Positions 9,537 through 56,564 of a stretch of 64,000 bases of DNA are shown here, piece after piece (position 1 is the stretch's first letter; each line of letters begins with the position of its first letter). The stretch is taken from positions 6,071-70,070 of the forward strand of contig CAYUZO010000005.1 in assembly GCA_964449735.1 (NCBI GenBank), in the 5' to 3' direction. The DNA comes from an uncultured Ferrimicrobium sp. (GTDB lineage: Bacteria; Actinomycetota; Acidimicrobiia; Acidimicrobiales; RAAP-2). The position numbers were made by a program, and so were the translations under genes. The notes beneath the pieces are model-generated. The model ran no database searches and was not told where the DNA came from. It worked only from the letters and a program-made list of their open reading frames with translations.

Positions 9537-10579
9537 CAGGCACCCTCCCCTTCGCTCGGAGCGCCGTCGAGCGCCGCCTCGAAGGCCGCCAGGTCGAAGC
9601 CGTCACTCGCCGGAGCGGGCATCTCGGCCTCGGTGGGGCCTCGCCGCAGGGACTCGGGCACGATCCCCTGGGGCCGGAACCACAGCATGACCATCAAGAA
9701 GACGCCGATCGTCATCGCGCCGATGTACTGGATCAACCCGGCGTGGCCCGGGATATCGGGCAGGAAGGCCGGCAGGTGGACGAGGAGGGTCTCCACCAGC
9801 AGCGCGCCGACCAGCAGGCCGATGTTGTTGCCCACACCACCGACAATGATCACCGCGAAGATGACGAAGGTCTCGCCCGGGAGCCAGGCTGAGGTGTTGA
9901 AGGAGCCCCCGAACTCCATGATGAGCCCGCCCCCGATGCCCGCGTAGAAGGCGCCGATGATCATGGCCACCAGCTGGCGGCGGAAGACGTCCTTGCCGAG
10001 AGCCGCGGCCACTGTCTCGTCGTCGCGGATGGCGCGCATGGTGCGACCCAGCGGCGACCGGGTGATGCGCGACATCACCAGCCACATGAGCAAGGAGATC
10101 GCGATCGTGACGATCGAGAAGAAGATCGTGAAGGCGTTGGTCGTCAGGTGCAGCGCCTTGGCCATGGGCTCGGGCACGTTGTAGATGCCGTCAGCGCCGT
10201 TGAACAGCGGCACGTAGTTGTTGCAGACGTCGTAGAGCACGAGGGACATCGAGATGAGCACGACCGCCTGATAGTCGGTGCGCAGACGTCTCATCACCAC
10301 GAAGGCCACGAAGACCGCCAGCAGCGATGCCGCCACCCCGCCTAGGAGCAGGTTCAGGGGGAAGACCAGGTGCCAGCCGAGGATGTAGTGCTCGCCGGTG
10401 GTCGTCGAGTTCGGCATGGCGGCCGCCCCAGTGACGTAGGCACCGAGCGCGACGAAGCCGATGTAGCCGAAGTTGAGGATCCCGGTCTCCCCGTACTGCA
10501 CGTTGAGCCCCATCGCGAGGATGAAGTAATCGAACAGGAAGAAGATGAGGGTGAAGACGTAGTACCAGATTGCTGCCAT
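9536..10579 (-). CDS. branched-chain-type ABC permease (LivM-like)
   Basis: This is a 347-aa polytopic membrane ORF in the livHMGF gene order. Confidence 0.88.
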   Translation of the reverse strand: MAAIWYYVFTLIFFLFDYFILAMGLNVQYGETGILNFGYIGFVALGAYVTGAAAMPNSTTTGEHYILGWHLVFPLNLLLGGVAASLLAVFVAFVVMRRLRTDYQAVVLISMSLVLYDVCNNYVPLFNGADGIYNVPEPMAKALHLTTNAFTIFFSIVTIAISLLMWLVMSRITRSPLGRTMRAIRDDETVAAALGKDVFRRQLVAMIIGAFYAGIGGGLIMEFGGSFNTSAWLPGETFVIFAVIIVGGVGNNIGLLVGALLVETLLVHLPAFLPDIPGHAGLIQYIGAMTIGVFLMVMLWFRPQGIVPESLRRGPTEAEMPAPASDGFDLAAFEAALDGAPSEGEGA

Positions 10580-10582
10580 GGC

Positions 10583-11503
10583 TCAGCCCTTCCCCGTGCG
10601 TGCCAAGAGGCCATTGGGCCTGATCAAGAGGGCGATGATGAGGATCACGAAGGCGATGTCCAGCTTGTAGGCGGGATTGATGAAGACCGCCGAGATCTCG
10701 GTCACCATGCCAATGAGGACCGCACCGGCCATCGCTCCGTAGATCGAACCGATGCCGCCGACGATCACCGCGGCGAAGATCACGAAGAGGAAGAGCTCAC
10801 CCGAGGTCGGAGTCAAGTTGCCCTGGGTGATGCCGAGCACGGTCCCCGCCAGACCGGCGAGCGTGCCGGACATGAACCAAGTGATCGTCGTGATCCGCTT
10901 GGTGTCGATGCCACTGGTCATCGCGAGGGTCGTGTTGTCCGACATCGCGCGCATCTGCTTGCCGAGCCGCGTCGTCTTGAGCAGGATGTGCACCCCGACC
11001 ATCAGCGCGACCGAGATGCCCATGACGATCAACTGGTAGGGGGTGAGCAGCAGCGGACCGACGTGAACGGCCCGGTTGATCGGCATCACGTAGAAGCGCA
11101 CCGCTGCTCCCCAGATCGAGTACACGACATTGAGCAGGATGAGCGAGAGACCGAAGGTGACAATCAGGACGTAGAAGGTCTTCTGGAATCGGCGAGCGAA
11201 GGGACTGAGGATCGCCCGCTGCACCGCGACCGCGAAGACGCCCACGAGTAGCGACCCGACCACGAGAGCGACCCAGATGTTCCAGTGGAACCACTCGTTG
11301 TTCACGACGTAGGTGAAGTAGGCACCCAACGCCATGTAGTCCCCGTAGGCGAAGTTGATGTAGTTGGTGATCCCGAACTGGAGCGACAGCCCCACCGAGG
11401 ACACGGCCAGGACCGATGAGGTCACGAGGCCGAAGCCGAAGGCCAGCCAGAACAGCTGCGCCGAGATCACCCCCAGGCTGAGAGGCAGCCCAAGCAGATG
11501 CAC
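10583..11503 (-). CDS. branched-chain-type ABC permease (LivH-like)
   Basis: This is a 306-aa polytopic membrane ORF and the first gene of the transporter operon. Confidence 0.88.
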   Translation of the reverse strand: MHLLGLPLSLGVISAQLFWLAFGFGLVTSSVLAVSSVGLSLQFGITNYINFAYGDYMALGAYFTYVVNNEWFHWNIWVALVVGSLLVGVFAVAVQRAILSPFARRFQKTFYVLIVTFGLSLILLNVVYSIWGAAVRFYVMPINRAVHVGPLLLTPYQLIVMGISVALMVGVHILLKTTRLGKQMRAMSDNTTLAMTSGIDTKRITTITWFMSGTLAGLAGTVLGITQGNLTPTSGELFLFVIFAAVIVGGIGSIYGAMAGAVLIGMVTEISAVFINPAYKLDIAFVILIIALLIRPNGLLARTGKG

Positions 11504-11816
11504 CGAATTCCCCCCTTAATGACGCCGCGGATTGGGTACCGCAACGAACTTGATAGTTCCTATCAGATTCGTGCCAGTCCGTCAAGGAAGGTCTAGGGAG
11601 AAGTAGAACTCCTGGTCAAGAGGGAGACAACCCAGGAAGATCGAGAGGCTCCACTGCGGACAGCCACTCGGCAGTCAAGGAATCCCCCCATGTCGCCGTC
11701 AACTCCCCCCTCGGCGGACGTCCACCGTGGGGCACCATACGCGAACGGAGCGTGGTGTGCTGGTCGGGTCGTCTCAGGAAAGTCCCAGAATCACAGCCGG
11801 TACTATGGGGCCCTTC

Positions 11817-11890
11817 GCGGGTGTAGTTCAGAGGTAGAACATCAGCTTCCCAAGCTGAGAACGCGGGTTCGATTCCCGTCGCCCGCTCCA
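11817..11890 (+). tRNA. tRNA-Gly (anticodon CCC)
   Basis: The 74-nt sequence is GCGGGTGTAGTTCAGAGGTAGAACATCAGCTTCCCAAGCTGAGAACGCGGGTTCGATTCCCGTCGCCCGCTCCA. The acceptor stem is GCGGGTG/CGCCCGC. The anticodon stem is TCAGC/GCTGA with loop TTCCCAA. The T-arm is GGGTTCGATTCCC, and CCA is encoded. Confidence 0.95.
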
Positions 11891-12110
11891 GTCCTTCTCC
11901 CTGGGAACCCCCATGATCTCAACGGTTTCCGAGTCCGTTCCCCGTCGACGACCCTCCGGACGTCACACTCGGCGGGGCCAGCGATCGTCCGTCAACTGGA
12001 TTGACACCGCTGACCCCGTTCACGGTGGCGAGCGCCTCCGGCGCCTGGTGCGCACCCACATCGGCCGGTCCGCACGCGACTTCCAGGCGACTGATGACCT
12101 CGGCGACCGC

Positions 12111-48810: not shown

Positions 48811-49779
48811 TCAGTGTCCGCGGTGGGGCGAGACCACCACGGTGAAGCTCCAGGTTCCGATGTCCCCTTGGGAGTCGGTGTCAGTGCCGCCGATCGTGTA
48901 GCGGCCCGGAGCCAGCCTCGACCCGTCACAACTCACCGTCCCGTCGGTGGTGACGCTGAGGAAGCGGTTGGGCTGGGTGACCGAGTACTGCACGGTGCCG
49001 GCACTGGGGTCCACCTGGAGGTGGCTCGCGCAGTGGCCCTCGGCGTCGCCGCCCGAGAGGGACTCGCCGAAGGGTTCGCGCTGCTCGACTCGACCGTGGC
49101 CGTGGACCTCCTGGGAGGGGCCGACCGCCACGAGCTGATAGGGCAGACCGCTTCCGTGACCGTCCGACCCGATCACCACCGCCTGGCCCGCGACCGGATA
49201 GGGATTCCAGCCGCTCTGTCCGGAGGCGGGTTGGGTCGCGTAGGCCGAGGCGAACTCGAACTCGAAGCTGACCGAGCCGCTCTGACCCGGGGCGAGAACC
49301 CCGGTCAACGGGTAGGGCCCCTTCAGCGGCCAGCAGCTGCTCGGTGAGGGACTAGCGCAGGCGTCGCTGAGGTCGCTCGAGGAGAAGACCGATCCGAGGG
49401 CACCCGCACCCGCCGAGGAGATGCGCACGAGGCCGTAGCGACCGAGGGTGTTGAGGGCGCTCAGGGCGGTGCGGTTCGGGAAGGCGAGGTAGAGGACGGC
49501 CGGCAGCTGGCCGGTGTTGGAGTAGTCCAGGGTGACGGTGGCGGGCGAACCCGGCAGGAGCTGACCGAGCGTCAGGTCGGTGCCGTCGGCCCCGCCACCA
49601 CCGCTCACCGAGATGGTGATCTGGCGCGACTCGTGGTCGTCGTGGGCGGTGGCCGCGACGGAGGGGTGATGCAGGGTGAGCGCGAGGACCCCCGAGGCGA
49701 AGGCCAGGACCCCGGCGAGCGCCACGCTCGCGACCTTCAGCGAGAGGGCGCCGATCGCGTGAGGGCGGCGGCCGCTCAC
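48811..49779 (-). CDS. secreted TasA/camelysin-like paralog with an alternate signal peptide and a ~100-aa C-terminal extension
   Basis: It shares LYLAFPNRTALSALNTLGRYG, CWPL and GLPYQL blocks with 50352..51101. Its start overlaps the signal-peptidase stop by 4 nt. Confidence 0.75.
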   Translation of the reverse strand: MSGRRPHAIGALSLKVASVALAGVLAFASGVLALTLHHPSVAATAHDDHESRQITISVSGGGGADGTDLTLGQLLPGSPATVTLDYSNTGQLPAVLYLAFPNRTALSALNTLGRYGLVRISSAGAGALGSVFSSSDLSDACASPSPSSCWPLKGPYPLTGVLAPGQSGSVSFEFEFASAYATQPASGQSGWNPYPVAGQAVVIGSDGHGSGLPYQLVAVGPSQEVHGHGRVEQREPFGESLSGGDAEGHCASHLQVDPSAGTVQYSVTQPNRFLSVTTDGTVSCDGSRLAPGRYTIGGTDTDSQGDIGTWSFTVVVSPHRGH

Positions 49780-50273
49780 GATCCCACCGCCACGGCGGGC
49801 TCGGCTTCCCCCGCCAGTGGCTCCGCGCGCTCCGCGCCCAGAGCCCAGATCTGCCAGAGGACCAGCACGGCGAGCAGCGCCGAGGCCAGTCCCACGGGGT
49901 CCTTGAAGTACATGATCCAGTAGCCGACGTAGGGCGGTGACCAGATCACTCCCCCGATGATCTGGCTGCGCGGCACGTGCCAGGGGTCGGGGGTGGGGTT
50001 CCCGTCGCCCTTCGTGATGGTGAGGCCCGACGGGGTGAAGCCGACGAGCCGGTGGGTTACCGTCAGGCCCTCCTCGGTGAAGGTGATGACCTGGCCGACG
50101 TGGTACTGACCGATCCGCACGAGGACCGCGCTGCCCGTGGGCACCGTCGGGCTCATCGAGCCGGTATGGATCACGTAGACCCGATAGGTCTTGGACTCCA
50201 CCTTCAAGAAGGTGAAGGTCGCCAGCAGCACCAGCGGGACCAGGATCGCAACAACCCTGCGCAGGACTTTCAC
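49776..50273 (-). CDS. SipW-like (archaeal/ER-type) signal peptidase I
   Basis: The 165-aa ORF has an N-terminal TM, GSMSPT (Ser box), THRLV (His box), TKGDGNPTPD and a C-terminal TM. Confidence 0.85.
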   Translation of the reverse strand: MKVLRRVVAILVPLVLLATFTFLKVESKTYRVYVIHTGSMSPTVPTGSAVLVRIGQYHVGQVITFTEEGLTVTHRLVGFTPSGLTITKGDGNPTPDPWHVPRSQIIGGVIWSPPYVGYWIMYFKDPVGLASALLAVLVLWQIWALGAERAEPLAGEAEPAVAVGS

Positions 50274-50291
50274 GTCACTCCTTCCCCCCGT

Positions 50292-50325
50292 CGCTGGGTC
50301 CCGGCGGCGGTGCCGGGACCCAGCG
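50292..50325 (-). terminator. 14-bp perfect hairpin between the TasA-like gene and the signal peptidase gene (intra-operon attenuator/stabiliser)
   Basis: Arms CGCTGGGTCCCGGC (50292..50305) and GCCGGGACCCAGCG (50312..50325) flank a 6-nt loop. The hairpin sits in the 78-nt spacer and has no U-tract. Confidence 0.45.
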
Positions 50326-50351
50326 GGGGGCTCAACCCTGAACCGGGTTGG

Positions 50352-51101
50352 CTAGAACTTGGTCCCGACCTGGCCCGGCGTGACGCCGACCTGGGTCGCG
50401 ATCAACTGGTAGGGCAGGCCGTCACCAGAGCCGTCCGCACCGTTCACCGTGAACTGGTTGTTGCTGCAGTCCTTGTGGGACCCACCGTTCGCGATGCAGG
50501 TGCTGTAGGAGACCCCACCGGCCAGCGGGTACTGGTTCCAGACGCCGGGCCCGTTGCCCGAGAGCATCGAGGCGTACTCGAAGGTGAAGGTGAAGTTCTC
50601 CGACCAGCCGGGCTGGACGTTGCTCGCCAGCAGCAGCGGCGAGGTCAGCGGCCAACAACCGGAGTTCGAACCCGACGGAATCGCGTTGGAGAACGGTCCG
50701 CAGCTCGTCGAGTTGTCATCGAGGTTGTAGGAGGTGAACACCGAGCCCACCGACCCTCCGCCCGCCGACGAGACCTGGACGCTGCCGTAGCGGCCCAGGT
50801 TGTTCAGCGCGCTCAGCGCCGTCGCGTTGGGAAAGGCCAGGTAGACGTCCTCGGGGCTGGTGCCCGAGTTGTGGTAATTCACCTGGACCGTCTGGGGCAC
50901 GCCGGGCAGGAGGTTGGAGAACCCGATGCTCGTCGGGCTGTCCGTCGAGACCAGGATGCTCCCGATCGTCCCCGAGATGCTCCCGTTGTGGGTGTCGCTG
51001 AAGTACGCCCCCGTCGACCCGGAGGCCACGACAGCGGTACCACCTAGCAAGGCGATGCTGGACACAAGGGCTAGAACCCTCGCCTTGGCGCCTCTCTTCA
51101 T
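50352..51101 (-). CDS. TasA/camelysin (M73)-like secreted fibre subunit with a SipW-cognate-type signal peptide
   Basis: The 249-aa ORF begins MKRGAKARVLALVSSIALLGGTAVVASGSTGAYFSD..., which matches the GG(T)FAYFSD signal/cleavage motif of TasA and camelysin. Confidence 0.82.
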   Translation of the reverse strand: MKRGAKARVLALVSSIALLGGTAVVASGSTGAYFSDTHNGSISGTIGSILVSTDSPTSIGFSNLLPGVPQTVQVNYHNSGTSPEDVYLAFPNATALSALNNLGRYGSVQVSSAGGGSVGSVFTSYNLDDNSTSCGPFSNAIPSGSNSGCWPLTSPLLLASNVQPGWSENFTFTFEYASMLSGNGPGVWNQYPLAGGVSYSTCIANGGSHKDCSNNQFTVNGADGSGDGLPYQLIATQVGVTPGQVGTKF

Positions 51102-51663
51102 GTTGTAATCCTTTTCTGTTGATGCCCTGACTCTCAGAGCGGAATGAACGAGGTGGCGGTTTCGCCATTAGCTCCCCACGGGCGGGGCGACCACACAAGG
51201 CCCGTGGTTCAACGCATCACCTGAAAAGGCCAGTCAGACCGATAACTGGGCAGACGGGACCACTCCTACAACGGAATTGTCGTAGGTGAGAACTCAGTCC
51301 TCTTCGAGTGTCCCCCAGCCGCAGAGTCGGAATGCCGACGCCTGGGCTCTCTCCTTTCCTCCTACGCAGTGAACGGAGGGATTTCGGGCACTCGCTCCCT
51401 GTCTGACGTGAACACCGACGATCTCTGAGGCTCCACCGACACGTCCGTATCATCACCATCAGCCCCACCCGGAGTGGTTCTGATGTCAGTGAAACGAGCC
51501 CTTGCAACCATCGATATACATCAGTACATCTCGAACTTCACGAAACTACTTCCTCCAATAGAGGGTCCTATCACGTGACAAGTTGTTCGTCAATTGAGAA
51601 TGTAGGCTCTGAGAACAATTCTACAAACCACACCGGTGTCGTCTGAATTATCTGTTCGTTTCC

Positions 51664-51694
51664 TTGGGGTATCCACTTCGGCGGAGTAGTCCTG
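51664..51694. repeat. left arm of a 31-nt inverted repeat bracketing the DUF4232 gene
   Basis: TTGGGGTATCCACTTCGGCGGAGTAGTCCTG is the reverse complement of 52401..52431 except at one position (G51681 versus T52414, which is a G-U pair if both arms are on plus-sense RNA). Confidence 0.9.
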
Positions 51695-51727
51695 GCATCG
51701 TGCGCCCTGCGCAGTACAGTCCCTCCC

Positions 51728-52324
51728 ATGAGCCGCGTTCGTCGGTTTGCGCGGCAACGGGCCTGCACCATCGCCCTCTCCCTCGTCGTCTTGGGGACAT
51801 TCATGGTCTGCGGTCCGGGCAAGGCGCCAACCGCCTCGGCCACGAGCGCCCCAACCTGTAGGACCTCGTCCCTCCGAGCTGTTGCGCTTGGCAACGCGGG
51901 TCTTGGGCACGGGTCCTACATCGTCGAGCTACGCAACGTCGCCGCGACGTCGTGTCGCTTGTCGGGGTATCCGCGGGTCGTGACATCGCCGCTCGGACCC
52001 TTGACTGGGATGTTCTCGCCCGTCTTCCGAGGGACCAGTCGGCTGAAGGCCGTCGCCCACGATGCGCGCACGGGCTACTCCGGGGGCCTCGGCACACCCC
52101 ACCGACCGCCGCCAGTGGTCACCCTGGCGGCTCACACCGGTAGGGCTTCCTTCGTGATCGAGTGGATCGAGGTCTCGCCAAGGAAGACCTGCCGCTCCTT
52201 CGCTCGCCTCTACGTGACCCTTCCGGGCTCGACGTCGCCGATGCGACTCAACGATGCTGGCCTGCTCTGCTCCATCCTCGAGGTACACCCGATCGTCAAG
52301 GGTTGGTCAGGATTCCTGAGCTAG
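51728..52324 (+). CDS. secreted DUF4232-like protein
   Basis: The 198-aa ORF has a signal/TM segment (ACTIALSLVVLGTFMVCG). The pattern C-x-(T/S)SSL...AG(L)GHG...L(R)N...C.L.GYP is typical of DUF4232. GC content and codon GC3 are visibly lower than in flanking genes. Confidence 0.7.
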   Translation: MSRVRRFARQRACTIALSLVVLGTFMVCGPGKAPTASATSAPTCRTSSLRAVALGNAGLGHGSYIVELRNVAATSCRLSGYPRVVTSPLGPLTGMFSPVFRGTSRLKAVAHDARTGYSGGLGTPHRPPPVVTLAAHTGRASFVIEWIEVSPRKTCRSFARLYVTLPGSTSPMRLNDAGLLCSILEVHPIVKGWSGFLS

Positions 52325-52400
52325 TTTCCGACTGCGACTGAGGGCAGGACCAGAAGCCCGTAAAGCCCAGTGGCCCACCGCCCCTGGCGGCGTCCTTCAT

Positions 52401-52431
52401 CAGGACTACTCCGTCGAAGTGGATACCCCAA
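52401..52431. repeat. right arm of the 31-nt inverted repeat
   Basis: CAGGACTACTCCGTCGAAGTGGATACCCCAA lies 706 nt from the left arm. The whole unit 51664..52431 is 768 bp. Confidence 0.9.
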
Positions 52432-52651
52432 CCGATTCCTGACGGTGGTGCACCGGACTCCAGATCCTTCGAGGACTCCACCCGCGAGTGGGGACCGGGC
52501 ACCGCGACGAGGCACCCGCGCGGCGCAGTGCCGGGGACACCCCTCGCCGCCTGCACCTCCTCACTGGTTGCAGCCTGGGATTGGTCGGCCCTCGTTGGCA
52601 TCCCCGCAGAGCTCGTCCCCGGCGTGGAGAAGGGCCCGGGCGAAGGGTCGA

Positions 52652-53608
52652 CTAGAGCGAAGAGGGAAGCTGCCCGGCGATCGTCTCGGCGATCTTCTGA
52701 TAGCCGGACTTGTTCGGGTGGTCGTCAGGCCCGAAGGGGTGGGGGGCACACATCCACGTCCAGGCGCAGACGTTGGCGACGTTCTGGGGCACGGTGCCGA
52801 AGGTGCCGGTCGAGACCATGGTCGTGTTCGTGCTCTCGAACACCTGAGGCATGTCGGCCACCGCGATGCCGGCCGCACGGTAGAGGGTGGACAGGGTCGA
52901 GTTCATCTCCGTCATCAACCCCAGACTTTGGGTGGCCAGTGCCGGCCCCTGGCCGCCCTTGGTGTAGCGCATGAGGAAGGGGTCGTCGTAGAGGAGGCCC
53001 ACGAAGTGGACGTGGGCTCCAGCGGCGGCCTTGAGCTGGGTGAGGACCTTGGGGAGGTCGGCTCGGACGTGGGCAATCCCTTGGTTGACGCACGAGACCG
53101 CGAGGGGCACGACCCACAGGCAGGGCCTGATGTCGTTGAAGCCGAGGTCGATGGAGACGACCCCGGCCTCAGCCTTGTGGGAATCGAGGAAGGCGACCGC
53201 CTGAGTGAGCTGGGTCTGAGGCAGCGGGTAGCAGTGGTCGCCTGAGAACATGGACTCCGCGGTCTCGCCCATGCAGCCGATCTTGGTGAGCTGGAGGGTG
53301 ATGCCCTTGGCGGCCTCGACGCGCACGAGGTCGTCGCCGTAGCCCCAGGGCGTGAAGGCCCCGTTGTGCTTGGGGTCACCGGTCGGCTGGACGCCGAGCG
53401 AGGCCGAGGCACCGATGTCAAGGTAGAAGCCGGTGCGGATCCCCGACGTGAGGGACTGGGCCGACGACGCCACGGTCGTCGGAGGGGCGACCGCCGACGA
53501 GCTCGACGGCGTGATGAACAACCCTGTCACCAGGACAAATGCGCCAACGACGGCCACGGCGACGCCGGCGACGGGATGTGGGGTTCGTACTCTGACGCGA
53601 CGGGGCAC
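52652..53608 (-). CDS. secreted SGNH/GDSL-like hydrolase (paralog of 30074..30991)
   Basis: A signal peptide, DIGASASLG, and the C-terminal CAWTWMCAPHPFGPDDHPN are present. This compares with CQLTWMCETDPFGPDNHPN in the paralog. Confidence 0.78.
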   Translation of the reverse strand: MPRRVRVRTPHPVAGVAVAVVGAFVLVTGLFITPSSSSAVAPPTTVASSAQSLTSGIRTGFYLDIGASASLGVQPTGDPKHNGAFTPWGYGDDLVRVEAAKGITLQLTKIGCMGETAESMFSGDHCYPLPQTQLTQAVAFLDSHKAEAGVVSIDLGFNDIRPCLWVVPLAVSCVNQGIAHVRADLPKVLTQLKAAAGAHVHFVGLLYDDPFLMRYTKGGQGPALATQSLGLMTEMNSTLSTLYRAAGIAVADMPQVFESTNTTMVSTGTFGTVPQNVANVCAWTWMCAPHPFGPDDHPNKSGYQKIAETIAGQLPSSL

Positions 53609-55100: not shown

Positions 55101-56564
55101 GTGTCCGACCTCGCCACCCTCTCTGAGCTCGTCGCGAGGCAGTCGGCCCGAGGTGATGATCCCTATCTGCTCGAGGTCCGCGGCCCGCGCGTGCTCGCCT
55201 ACGCGGACCTCCCGCGAGTTCTCGGCGCCTGGGCGGCCCGCCTGGAGCTGGCGGGAGTCGCTCCCGGCGAGAGGGTCGCCCTGTCCCTGTCGGACCCCCT
55301 CGACTTGGCGGAGGCGCTGCTCGGCACCATCGCCTCGGGTCGATGGGCCGCGCCGCTCGACCCCGGTCTCGAGGCCGGCCACCCCGGCGCCGCGCGCGCG
55401 CGCGCGACCCGCTTGGAGGCCGCGGCGCTGGTGACGGGGGTCGATGAGCCGATCGAGCGGCTGTCGACGTCGGCGACGACTCGAGAGGGTGGGGGCATCG
55501 TCCTGGCCTCCTCCGGGACTACGGGGACCCCGAAGGTCATGGCCCTCTCCACCCGGCAGTTGCTCGCGACCGCCGAGCTGATCAGCCACCACCATCGCCT
55601 CAGTCCCGCGGACCGCGGATTCAACCCCTTGCCGCTCTTCCACATCAACGCCGAGGTCGTCGGCCTGCTTTCGACCTTGGTCGCGGGAGCCTCTCTCGCC
55701 CTCGACGAGCGCTTCCACCGGACCCGCTTCTGGTCCGAGGTCGAGCGCCTCGGTGCGACGTGGGTCAACGCGGTGCCCGCGATCATCGCGCGCCTCGCCG
55801 TGCTGCAGCCCGGCGAGCAAGTGCCCGGCGGCGTCCGCTTCGTCCGCTCCGCCTCCGCCCCGCTGGCCCCGGCCCTACTCGAGGAGTTCGAGGCCACCAC
55901 CGGTCTCGCCGTGATCGAGACCTACGGGATGACCGAGGCCGCGAGCCAGATCTGCGCGAACCCACTCGAGGGACCCCGCAAGGCCGGGTCGGTCGGGCGC
56001 CCAGTGGGCGTGCGGGTGCGGGTGCGCACCGGCACCGCCGACGCCGGACCGGGTGAGGTCGGTGAGGTGGAGATCTGCGGACCCACGGTGATCGACCACT
56101 ACGAGTCACCGGGCTACGAGTCGCGCTTCAGCCCCGATGGATGGTTGCACACGGGCGACCTCGGCTACCTCGACGAGGAGGGCTACCTCTTCCTCGCGGG
56201 ACGCTCGGACGACGTGATCAACCGCGGCGGCGAGAAGATCCTGCCCCGCGAGATCGAGGAGGTCCTCCTCGGTGCGCCTGAGGTCGCCGGCGCGGCGGTC
56301 GTCGGTCGAGCCGACCAGGTCTTCGGACAGGTGCCGGTCGCCTACGTCGAGCTCGACGGAATCGGGCCGGACAGCGCGATCGAGGTCGTCGCCCCGATCT
56401 TGAAGGACCTTCGCGAGCGCCTCGTCGATGCCTTCCCCCGCACCAGGAGACCGGCCAGCGTGAACGTCGTGTCGGCCCTGCCCTCGCACGTCAACGGCAA
56501 GATCCGCCGGTCCGAGTTGCGTGACACCCTGCCGGACCCTCTCTTCAGCGAAGAGGTCGGCTAG
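55101..56564 (+). CDS. ANL-superfamily adenylate-forming enzyme (AMP-dependent synthetase/ligase)
   Basis: SSGTTGTPK, YGMTE, TGDLGY and GRSDDVINRGGEKI are present in a 487-aa ORF. Confidence 0.9.
   Translation: MSDLATLSELVARQSARGDDPYLLEVRGPRVLAYADLPRVLGAWAARLELAGVAPGERVALSLSDPLDLAEALLGTIASGRWAAPLDPGLEAGHPGAARARATRLEAAALVTGVDEPIERLSTSATTREGGGIVLASSGTTGTPKVMALSTRQLLATAELISHHHRLSPADRGFNPLPLFHINAEVVGLLSTLVAGASLALDERFHRTRFWSEVERLGATWVNAVPAIIARLAVLQPGEQVPGGVRFVRSASAPLAPALLEEFEATTGLAVIETYGMTEAASQICANPLEGPRKAGSVGRPVGVRVRVRTGTADAGPGEVGEVEICGPTVIDHYESPGYESRFSPDGWLHTGDLGYLDEEGYLFLAGRSDDVINRGGEKILPREIEEVLLGAPEVAGAAVVGRADQVFGQVPVAYVELDGIGPDSAIEVVAPILKDLRERLVDAFPRTRRPASVNVVSALPSHVNGKIRRSELRDTLPDPLFSEEVG

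What the first reader, a model, noticed from the sequence alone, without database searches (positions are those of the whole stretch)
51664..52431. 31-nt near-perfect inverted repeats bracketing a complete DUF4232 gene (768-bp cassette)
TTGGGGTATCCACTTCGGCGGAGTAGTCCTG (51664..51694) and its reverse complement (52401..52431) flank the 198-aa DUF4232 gene. They begin 34 nt before its start codon and 76 nt after its stop. The single difference (G51681 versus T52414) gives a G-U pair on plus-sense RNA but a C-A mismatch on the opposite strand. The cassette sits in the lowest-GC part of the window and contains no transposase or recombinase. I see three possibilities. One is an invertible, phase-variable gene cassette switched by a recombinase encoded elsewhere. 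Another is a non-autonomous, MITE-like mobile cassette carrying a passenger gene, although I could not see a clear target-site duplication. The third is a 31-bp long-range 5'/3' RNA duplex enclosing the whole mRNA, which would be an RNase III substrate or stabiliser. None of these is explained by standard annotation.
Basis: seen in the sequence. Interest (0 to 1): 0.68.

Follow-up and report, generated by a model that had tools for sequence, protein, structure and literature searches.

The report
Inverted-repeat-bounded, horizontally moved single-gene cassette
A 768-bp piece of DNA carrying one secreted-protein gene is bracketed by 31-bp inverted repeats that mark the exact edges of a unit found in two unrelated genomic places, so it most likely moved as a transposase-less cassette, though the enzyme that moved it is unknown.

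Summary
The arms at 51664-51694 and 52401-52431 are 31 nt long with one mismatch. Chance predicts none, and this is the only near-perfect long inverted repeat (IR) in the window. They bracket a 198-aa DUF4232 gene.

The main new evidence is comparative. Only six homologues exist among 5.8 billion proteins. One group of uncultured actinobacterial contigs carries the same gene between the same kind of arms, in a different neighbourhood after an ECF sigma/anti-sigma pair. Homology between the window and that group starts at the outer end of the left arm and stops at the outer end of the right arm. Close relatives of that group lack the cassette, and their homology breaks at the left arm.

The gene's GC3 is 0.80, against 0.89-0.91 for its window neighbours. 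Its dS to the other group is only about 0.3, although a neighbouring gene has no relative above 66% identity. The cassette was therefore imported.

My best reading is a non-autonomous cassette bounded by terminal inverted repeats, like a mobile insertion cassette. The weaknesses are that there is no target-site duplication, no cognate transposase and no further copies. The RNA-clamp and invertible-switch readings are less favoured. The gene probably has a leaderless promoter inside the arms. Interest is moderate.

The parts
51664..52431 (+). Whole IR-bounded cassette (768 bp)
   Evidence: Homology to the L003/L005/L007 loci (71-100% by segment) begins at the left arm and ends at the last base of the right arm. 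The 60-nt flanks on both sides score at the noise level of 55-63%. GC is 0.658 against 0.702 for the window.
51664..51694 (.). Left arm (terminal inverted repeat, 31 nt)
   Evidence: It is 77-87% identical to the left arms of L003, L005 and L007. A left arm of the L005 type is also present in L006, L011, L066 and L091. Its inner end overlaps the position where a -35 element would lie for the putative promoter (inference).
52401..52431 (.). Right arm (terminal inverted repeat, 31 nt)
   Evidence: Its outer 19 nt are 100% identical to the right arm of L007, while the adjacent 3' untranslated stretch is only 71% identical. The inner 8 nt (ACTACTCC) are absent from the right arms of L003, L005 and L007.
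51728..52324 (+). Passenger gene: 198-aa DUF4232 protein with an N-terminal signal-like hydrophobic segment and four invariant cysteines
   Evidence: Pfam PF14016, E = 2.7e-9. Six homologues at 58-86% identity. dN/dS is about 0.28 against the L003 group. GC3 is 0.80 against 0.89-0.91 for the neighbours.
51715..51720 (+). Putative -10 hexamer TACAGT (TANNNT type), 7 nt before the ATG, suggesting a leaderless mRNA (inferred)
   Evidence: Read from the sequence. The hexamer and its spacing are conserved in all arm-bearing loci. The arm-less locus L001 has the same arrangement (TACGAT-7 nt-GTG). No Shine-Dalgarno sequence is present; the stretch before the ATG is CCCTCCC. There is no experimental support.
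52325..52400 (+). 3' untranslated stretch between the stop codon and the right arm
   Evidence: It is 71-76% identical to relatives, less than the arms and less than the coding sequence. No intrinsic-terminator-like site was found.

Best explanation
The 768-bp segment is a discrete single-gene DNA cassette with no transposase of its own, and its ends are the 31-bp terminal inverted repeats. It was acquired horizontally by the window's Acidimicrobiales-like genome. It now sits at a synteny break between a GDSL/SGNH hydrolase gene and a riboswitch-led TasA/SipW-like operon.

The arms most likely work at the DNA level as the end sequences recognised by a transposase or recombinase supplied in trans. 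The outer 19 bp or so would be the essential part. This is how mobile insertion cassettes (MICs) work. The gene probably brings its own promoter inside the arms.

Shown: the IR is real and not due to chance. The unit boundaries coincide with the IR ends in two contexts. The cassette is present or absent among close relatives. It was imported. The arm termini are under constraint.

Inferred: that a trans-acting enzyme moved it by acting on the arms, and what kind of enzyme that was.
For: 1. Boundaries. In alignment A1 and by BLAST, window-to-L003/L005/L007 similarity begins within about 4 nt of the left arm (BLAST alignments start at window 51660) and stops at CCCCAA of the right arm. The segments inside are 71-100% identical, and the 60-nt flanks are at noise level.
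2. Different contexts. In the window the cassette lies between a c-di-GMP-II riboswitch/TasA-like operon and an SGNH hydrolase gene. In L003/L005/L006/L007 it lies after an ECF sigma/anti-sigma pair.
3. Presence or absence. L090 and L092 have anti-sigma proteins 92% and 89% identical to that of L003, and about 91% DNA identity to L003 over the shared flank. They lack the cassette, and their homology to L003/L005 stops 2 nt before the left arm. On the other side, the paralogous X repeat breaks exactly at the outer end of the right arm.
4. Import. Gene GC3 is 0.80 against 0.89-0.91 for window neighbours and 0.75 in the L003 group. dS to the L003 group is only 0.29-0.33, while the adjacent SGNH protein has no non-self relative above 66% identity in 5.8e9 proteins. 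Synteny with L070 and L071 ends just beyond the SGNH stop codon.
5. Constraint on the arms. The outer 19 nt of the right arm are 100% identical between the window and L007, while the neighbouring untranslated DNA is 71%. L003 carries the same two substitutions on both arms.
6. The IR is sharply bounded at 31 nt, as terminal IRs are.
7. [quoted passage not shown]
Against: There is no target-site duplication at either insertion.

No transposase, integrase or invertase is present in the 64-kb window.

No further copy of the arm was found anywhere. The window holds only the two arms. In 185,579 species genomes only two MAGs (L011, L066) are real hits, each with one left arm. There are none in JGI metagenomes, viral contigs, plasmids or phages. 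No cognate autonomous element is therefore known, and only two insertion contexts support mobility.

In the L003 group the site is a replacement rather than a clean insertion, so no true empty site is available. L001/L002 carry the gene without arms, so the arms are not needed for the gene itself.
Confidence: 0.5

Rival explanations
1. RNA clamp. Both arms are transcribed on one plus-strand RNA and form a 31-bp 5'/3' duplex that encloses the whole coding region. This duplex would serve as an RNase III processing site or as a stabiliser against exonucleases. This could be a secondary use of the cassette ends rather than an exclusive alternative.
For: The predicted minimum-free-energy fold of 51640-52460 pairs the arms completely (z = -3.5). 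The arms also pair in the L007 fold. On plus-sense RNA the non-Watson-Crick positions are G-U in the window (1 of 1) and in L007 (3 of 3); on minus-sense RNA they are mismatches. In L003, arm positions 8 and 10 are changed on both arms so that pairing is kept. In the L003 group the gene lies 137 nt downstream of the anti-sigma gene on the same strand, so read-through could include the left arm. Precedent: 5'/3' UTR pairing with RNase III cleavage in the icaR mRNA (PMC3868564).
Against: A TANNNT hexamer sits 7 nt before the start codon. It is conserved even in the arm-less L001, and there is no Shine-Dalgarno sequence. This suggests a leaderless mRNA that starts downstream of the left arm. No plus-strand promoter-like site was found upstream of the left arm. 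Counted as independent events, the G-U bias is about 4 of 6, which is not significant. The L005 right arm has three true mismatches, and the relatives' right arms have lost 8 nt. L001/L002 keep the gene with no arms. An RNA role does not explain why DNA homology ends exactly at the arm ends in different genomes.
Confidence: 0.2
2. Invertible, phase-variable cassette. A site-specific recombinase encoded elsewhere flips 51695-52400 between the arms.
For: A near-perfect IR of about lox/FRT size flanks a gene for a secreted protein, and such genes are typical of phase-variable loci. Invertons are defined by such flanking IRs (PMC11892184 and PMC11602134).
Against: No recombinase is present among the 54 window genes. 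Independent assemblies of the same strain from two other sequencing runs are 100% identical and in the same orientation. Every relative has the gene in the same orientation relative to its arms. The putative promoter lies inside the arms, and the arms are identical, so flipping would not change what lies upstream of the gene. The relatives' right arm lacks 8 inner nt, which would destroy a recombinase core site, yet the outer 19 nt stay conserved. Half-site dyad symmetry within the arm is weak (5 of 11, read from the sequence).
Confidence: 0.07
3. Paired operator sites. The two arms are binding sites for one DNA-binding protein, which would loop or insulate the gene.
For: The left arm abuts the expected -35 position. 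The arms are more conserved than neighbouring non-coding DNA.
Against: There is no internal dyad symmetry and no candidate regulator travelling with the cassette. At 31 bp the sites would be long for an operator. This reading does not explain the homology boundaries.
Confidence: 0.05
4. Chance, or a decaying inverted duplication with no function.
For: The arm is single-copy and absent from almost all public data.
Against: Chance predicts zero occurrences. The same arrangement is kept in a second lineage at dS of about 0.3. The arm termini are more conserved than neighbouring non-coding DNA, and both arms of L003 carry the same changes.
Confidence: 0.05

Closest known systems
Mobile insertion cassettes (MICs), e.g. 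MIC231 of Bacillus cereus and the TnXax1-IR-flanked MICs of Xanthomonas (PMC4337579)
   Same: One passenger gene lies between short terminal inverted repeats, with no transposase inside. The same unit is found in different genomic places and is present or absent among relatives.
   Different: The IRs cannot be tied to any known IS or transposon. No 5-bp or other target-site duplication is present. There is one copy per genome as far as can be seen. The host is an uncultured Acidimicrobiales-like actinobacterium.
MITEs, and Tn3-derived inverted-repeat miniature elements
   Same: They are non-autonomous and bounded by terminal inverted repeats. This cassette's terminus begins with a G run (TTGGGG), which recalls the GGGG tips of Tn3-family IRs (from my own knowledge).
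   Different: MITEs are non-coding, usually under about 500-600 bp and multi-copy (from my own knowledge). This unit is 768 bp, codes for a protein and is single-copy. Tn3-type IRs are about 38 bp and give 5-bp duplications; neither is seen here.
Invertons (recombinase-flipped segments flanked by IRs; PMC11892184, PMC11602134)
   Same: Inverted repeats flank a short segment next to or containing a gene for a secreted or surface protein.
   Different: The whole gene and its likely promoter lie inside the arms. No invertase is present, and no orientation variant is seen.
5'/3' UTR pairing of the icaR mRNA with RNase III cleavage (PMC3868564), and the long-range processing stems that flank rRNAs (from my own knowledge)
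   Same: A long-range duplex between sequences before and after a gene is predicted.
   Different: In icaR the 3' UTR pairs with the Shine-Dalgarno region. Here there is no Shine-Dalgarno sequence, the left arm is 34 nt upstream of the start codon, and it is probably upstream of the transcription start.

Membership tests
Mobile insertion cassette (MIC) | Passenger gene(s) flanked by terminal inverted repeats | tested here: met
   31-nt arms with 1 mismatch flank the DUF4232 gene.
Mobile insertion cassette (MIC) | No transposase gene inside the element | tested here: met
   The only credible gene inside is DUF4232.
Mobile insertion cassette (MIC) | IRs related to those of a cognate IS or transposon that supplies the transposase in trans | tested here: inconclusive
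   No other copy of the arm was found in the window, in GTDB species genomes apart from two left arms next to the same gene, or in metagenome, viral, plasmid and phage collections. The complete genome of the window organism could not be searched.
Mobile insertion cassette (MIC) | Target-site duplication flanking the IRs | tested here: not met
   The window flanks are ...GTTTCC | CCGATT.... The L003-group flanks are ...GGTTCG | GTGATG.... Neither pair forms a direct repeat.
Mobile insertion cassette (MIC) | The same unit in different genomic locations, with boundaries at the IR ends | tested here: met
   Two unrelated contexts, plus absence in L090 and L092.
MITE | Small, non-coding and multi-copy within a genome | tested here: not met
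   The unit is 768 bp and codes for a protein under purifying selection (dN/dS 0.28). Only one copy was detectable.
Tn3-family end or Tn3-derived cassette | IRs of about 38 bp with a GGGG tip, and a 5-bp target-site duplication | tested here: not met
   The IR is 31 bp, the tip is TTGGGG, and no 5-bp duplication is present. The family features are recalled from my own knowledge and from PMC4337579.
Inverton (phase-variable inversion) | Both orientations present in a population | not testable with these tools
The assemblies of the strain that could be compared (the window, L068, L069) are identical and in one orientation.
Inverton (phase-variable inversion) | A cognate invertase, usually encoded nearby | tested here: not met
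   No recombinase Pfam hit in any of the 54 window ORFs.
Inverton (phase-variable inversion) | Inversion changes the link between promoter and gene | tested here: inconclusive
   The putative -10 hexamer lies inside the arms, so a flip would be silent. The promoter is only inferred.
5'/3' UTR RNA duplex or RNase III site | Both arms on one transcript | not testable with these tools
   No transcript data are available. The sequence suggests a leaderless start at 51728.
5'/3' UTR RNA duplex or RNase III site | Pairing conserved with compensatory changes | tested here: inconclusive
   Two positions are compensated in L003. The mismatches in the window and in L007 are all G-U. L005 has three true mismatches. 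Only four sequences were available.
Integron gene cassette | A single attC site at the 3' end, in an array next to an integrase gene | tested here: not met
   The repeats lie at both ends, and there is no integrase and no array.

The most novel reading that the evidence does not exclude
The arms are the recombination ends of a previously undescribed, duplication-free cassette-exchange system in uncultured Acidimicrobiia. In it, single genes bounded by terminal IRs of about 19-31 bp are swapped into slots of larger IR-bounded modules. One such module is the roughly 3-kb unit seen in relatives, made of the X repeat, an ECF sigma gene, an anti-sigma gene, a variable third gene and an inverted X repeat, where the DUF4232 cassette abuts the inner edge of the inverted X repeat. 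The same ends might also form an RNA clamp when read through.
Probability: 0.12. Interest if true: 0.7.

Novelty: new member of a known kind. Interest (0 to 1): 0.4.

Why it matters
If the reading is right, this would be, to my knowledge, the first example in the poorly studied Acidimicrobiia of a secreted-protein gene moving between lineages as a minimal IR-bounded cassette with no transposase. It would also give a defined 19-31-bp end sequence with which to look for the responsible enzyme. It shows that genes in the DUF4232 family, which often sit beside sigma/anti-sigma pairs, can be exchanged as modules. The practical value is modest. It is one locus with few relatives, and the general kind of element (passenger cassettes bounded by IRs) is already known.

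Tried and rejected
- **Extended IR.** The 100 nt outside and the 100 nt inside the arms show nothing above shuffled controls.
- **More copies of the arm.** Degenerate 19- and 21-nt patterns gave 58 hits in species genomes, of which 56 are chance. All 17 metagenome hits and both viral hits are chance.
- **Plasmid or phage origin.** No blastn match.
- **Known RNA family over the arms or in related loci.** None.
- **A clean empty site.**
  - The window organism has no close relative; the best neighbour protein is 66% identical.
  - L070 and L071 share synteny only on the far side of the SGNH gene.
  - L090 and L092 lack the cassette but carry other DNA in its place.
- **The left flank of the L003-group cassette as the continuation of the interrupted X repeat**, which would have given a paralogous empty site. 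Not significant.
- **The nearby DUF4232 gene in L070 as an orthologue.** It is only 28% identical and has no IR.
- **Orientation or strain variants of the window locus.** L068 and L069 are 100% identical to the window.
- **Structure of the passenger protein.** The AlphaFold2 model had mean pLDDT 36, so no fold search was run.
- **Shared promoter motif between the sigma-upstream and DUF4232-upstream regions.** I saw a loose GCGTSGTGC resemblance by eye but did not pursue it, because it is not distinguishable from chance.
- **Tyrosine-recombinase-like half-site symmetry inside the arm.** 5 of 11 positions match, which is weak.

Full report
**Observation**

They are 31 nt long and 706 nt apart. 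The single difference is G51681 opposite T52414.

With up to three mismatches allowed, the 31-mer occurs only at these two places in the 64-kb window. It never occurred in 100 dinucleotide-preserving shuffles. A window-wide scan shows it is the only long, near-perfect inverted repeat (IR). The other pairs are GC-rich coding-sequence matches of at most 95% complementarity.

The repeat has sharp edges. Neither the 100 nt outside nor the 100 nt inside the arms are more alike than shuffled sequence.

The enclosed ORF, 51728-52324 (+), 198 aa, matches Pfam DUF4232 above the gathering score, though only over the first third of the profile. It has a hydrophobic N-terminus and four invariant cysteines.

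**Surroundings**

To the left, on the minus strand, an Rfam-significant c-di-GMP-II-GAG riboswitch (51145-51228) leads a camelysin/TasA-like gene, a SipW-like signal peptidase gene and a further secreted-protein gene. To the right lies a convergent GDSL/SGNH hydrolase gene (52652-53608).

None of the 54 likely genes of the window has a transposase, integrase or invertase domain.

The organism looks like an uncultured Acidimicrobiales-type actinobacterium. The best named relatives of the SGNH protein carry that label. No non-self relative exceeds 66% identity in 5.8 billion proteins.

**Relatives of the gene**

Only six homologues were found. Their contigs fall into three contexts:

- **L003, L005, L006 and L007** (84-86% protein identity). 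The gene follows an ECF sigma/anti-sigma pair.
- **L001 and L002** (72% identity). The gene lies between an ArsR-type regulator gene and an unknown gene.
- **L004** (58% identity). This is different again.

The L003 group also has inverted repeats around the gene, at the same relative positions and with recognisably the same sequence. L001/L002 and L004 have none.

**The key result: homology boundaries**

In the multiple alignment and by BLAST, similarity between the window and the L003 group begins at the outer end of the left arm and ends at the last base (CCCCAA) of the right arm. By segment, identity of the window to the three complete loci (L003, L005, L007) is:

| Segment | Identity |
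|---|---|
| Left arm | 77-87% |
| Arm-to-ATG spacer | 79-85% |
| Coding sequence | 86-88% |
| 3' untranslated stretch | 71-76% |
| Outer 19 nt of the right arm | 79-100% |
| 60-nt flanks on both sides | 55-63% (noise level of the aligner) |

Two further junction observations come from relatives.

- L090 and L092 have anti-sigma proteins 92% and 89% identical to that of L003, and about 91% DNA identity to L003 across the sigma/anti-sigma module. They lack the cassette. Their homology to L003 and L005 stops 2 nt before the left arm, after which they carry an unrelated minus-strand gene.
- On the right side in the L003 group, an inverted copy of a roughly 130-nt repeat that I call X runs up to the last base of the right arm. 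X otherwise lies upstream of the sigma gene. Its similarity to the upstream copy breaks at that point.

The arm-to-arm segment is therefore a discrete unit in both genomes.

**The cassette was imported**

The gene's GC3 is 0.80. Window neighbours are 0.89-0.91. The homologues and their neighbours in the L003 group are 0.73-0.77.

dS between the window gene and the L003-group genes is only 0.29-0.33, comparable to dS within that group (0.06-0.22). dN/dS is about 0.28, so the gene is functional. Yet the adjacent SGNH gene has nothing closer than 66% protein identity.

The conserved gene order ComA-glyoxalase-AMP ligase-acyltransferase-SGNH, shared with L070 and L071, ends just beyond the SGNH stop codon. 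That is the cassette side.

**Constraint on the arms**

The outer 19 nt of the right arm are identical between the window and L007, although the adjoining untranslated DNA has fallen to 71%. In L003, arm positions 8 and 10 read the same on both arms (T at both positions, against A and C in both window arms), so the arms stay complementary there. The right arms of L003, L005 and L007 have lost 8 inner nucleotides. Any function therefore resides in the outer 19 nt or so.

**Which mechanism**

A DNA-level role as the recognition ends of a mobile cassette explains four things: the boundary coincidences, the two contexts, the presence/absence polymorphism and the import. This is the logic of mobile insertion cassettes, which are passenger genes between IS-related IRs, lack a transposase and are mobilised in trans (PMC4337579).

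Membership in that class is not established, for three reasons:

- There is no target-site duplication at either site.
- No cognate element is known.
- The arm is not multi-copy. A degenerate 19-mer scan of 185,579 species genomes gave 58 hits, of which only two are real (L011 and L066). Both are left arms in front of the same gene start in the sigma/anti-sigma context. Metagenome, viral, plasmid and phage collections gave nothing.

I therefore say it works like a MIC, with confidence of about 0.5.

**RNA clamp**

The arms pair fully in the predicted fold. The window's mismatch and all three of L007's are G-U on plus-sense RNA.

Counted as independent substitutions, the bias is about 4 of 6, which is not significant. 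L005 has three real mismatches.

More importantly, a TANNNT hexamer (TACAGT, 51715-51720) sits 7 nt before the ATG. It has the same spacing in every relative, including the arm-less L001 (TACGAT-7 nt-GTG). The stretch before the ATG is CCCTCCC, with no Shine-Dalgarno sequence. This is the pattern of actinobacterial leaderless mRNAs, as I know it from general knowledge. If so, the left arm is upstream of the transcription start.

No plus-strand promoter-like site was found upstream of the arm. In the L003 group, read-through from the anti-sigma gene could still include it. I give this reading 0.2, possibly as an add-on rather than an alternative.

**Invertible switch**

Nothing supports this reading:

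- No recombinase is present in the window.
- The assemblies from other runs are identical and in one orientation.
- The likely promoter lies inside the arms.
- The relatives have an 8-nt deletion in one arm.

It cannot be excluded without reads. I give it 0.07.

**Other observations**

In L011, L066 and L091 the left arm and the first 90 or so codons are fused to a BNR/sortilin-like beta-propeller, and there is no right arm.

The sigma/anti-sigma module of the relatives is itself bounded by inverted X repeats. It sits in different neighbourhoods in L003, L090, L092 and L011, with homology starting exactly at the X outer end. Solo X ends lie next to a tRNA-Arg gene in L090. This suggests a nested, modular arrangement that deserves its own study.

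**Verdict**

This is a real, conserved feature that chance does not explain. It is best read as the ends of a horizontally transferred single-gene cassette with no transposase of its own. That would make it a new member of a known kind of element, with the moving enzyme and any RNA role still open. Interest is moderate (0.4).

Noticed in passing
window 51145-51228 (-), with 48811-51101 (-): A c-di-GMP-II-GAG riboswitch (Rfam RF03169, 54.5 bits) lies directly upstream of an operon of a camelysin/TasA-like protein, a SipW-like S26 signal peptidase and a 322-aa secreted protein. It looks like a c-di-GMP-controlled fibre or biofilm-matrix locus in an Acidimicrobiales-like genome.
   Followed up: partly
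L003 2968-3091 and 5697-5829; L090 4232-4311, 7177-7256 and 7481-7515; L092 5233-8253 and 286-320: A repeat X of about 80-130 nt (outer end CAGGTTTCGGCGTTCAGGGGCC) flanks, in inverted orientation, a roughly 3-kb unit made of an ECF sigma gene, an anti-sigma gene and a variable third gene. Homology between genomes starts and stops exactly at the X outer ends while the neighbourhoods differ. Solo X ends also occur, one of them next to tRNA-Arg(CCG) in L090. The unit looks like a second, larger non-autonomous IR-bounded element lying among defence-type genes (NERD, DUF3800, CAP12/Pycsar TIR, SMODS, Schlafen/AlbA_2).
   Followed up: partly
L011 3452-5033; L091 6207-7788; L066: The left arm, the promoter region and the first 90 or so codons of the DUF4232 gene are fused to a BNR/sortilin-like beta-propeller coding region. 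The break corresponds to window position about 51997, and there is no right arm. This is a recombinant gene variant in otherwise syntenic relatives.
   Followed up: partly
window 51229-51663: A 435-nt intergenic region with the lowest GC in the window (0.53). It contains two minus-strand sigma-70-like promoter matches. The -35 hexamer of one of them (TGGATA, 51675-51670) lies inside the left arm and faces outward.
   Followed up: no
window 11817-11887 (+) and 10001-12000: A tRNA gene (Rfam, 70 bits) lies in a stretch of lower GC (0.61-0.63) next to branched-chain amino-acid ABC transporter genes. No integrase was found nearby.
   Followed up: partly
window 55357-55444: An imperfect 50-nt palindrome containing a (CG)n run of about 14 nt lies inside the AMP-binding enzyme gene.
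   Followed up: no
L068 7285-7599 (= window 52010-52324): The public gene call for this locus is a 104-aa N-terminally truncated product rather than the 198-aa ORF. This is why the window's own DUF4232 protein did not appear among the database hits.
   Followed up: yes
L070 7335-8108: In the closest syntenic relative, a different DUF4232 paralogue (257 aa, 28% identical) lies two genes beyond the SGNH hydrolase gene, after a GntR regulator gene and without flanking repeats. DUF4232 genes therefore recur at this synteny break.
   Followed up: yes
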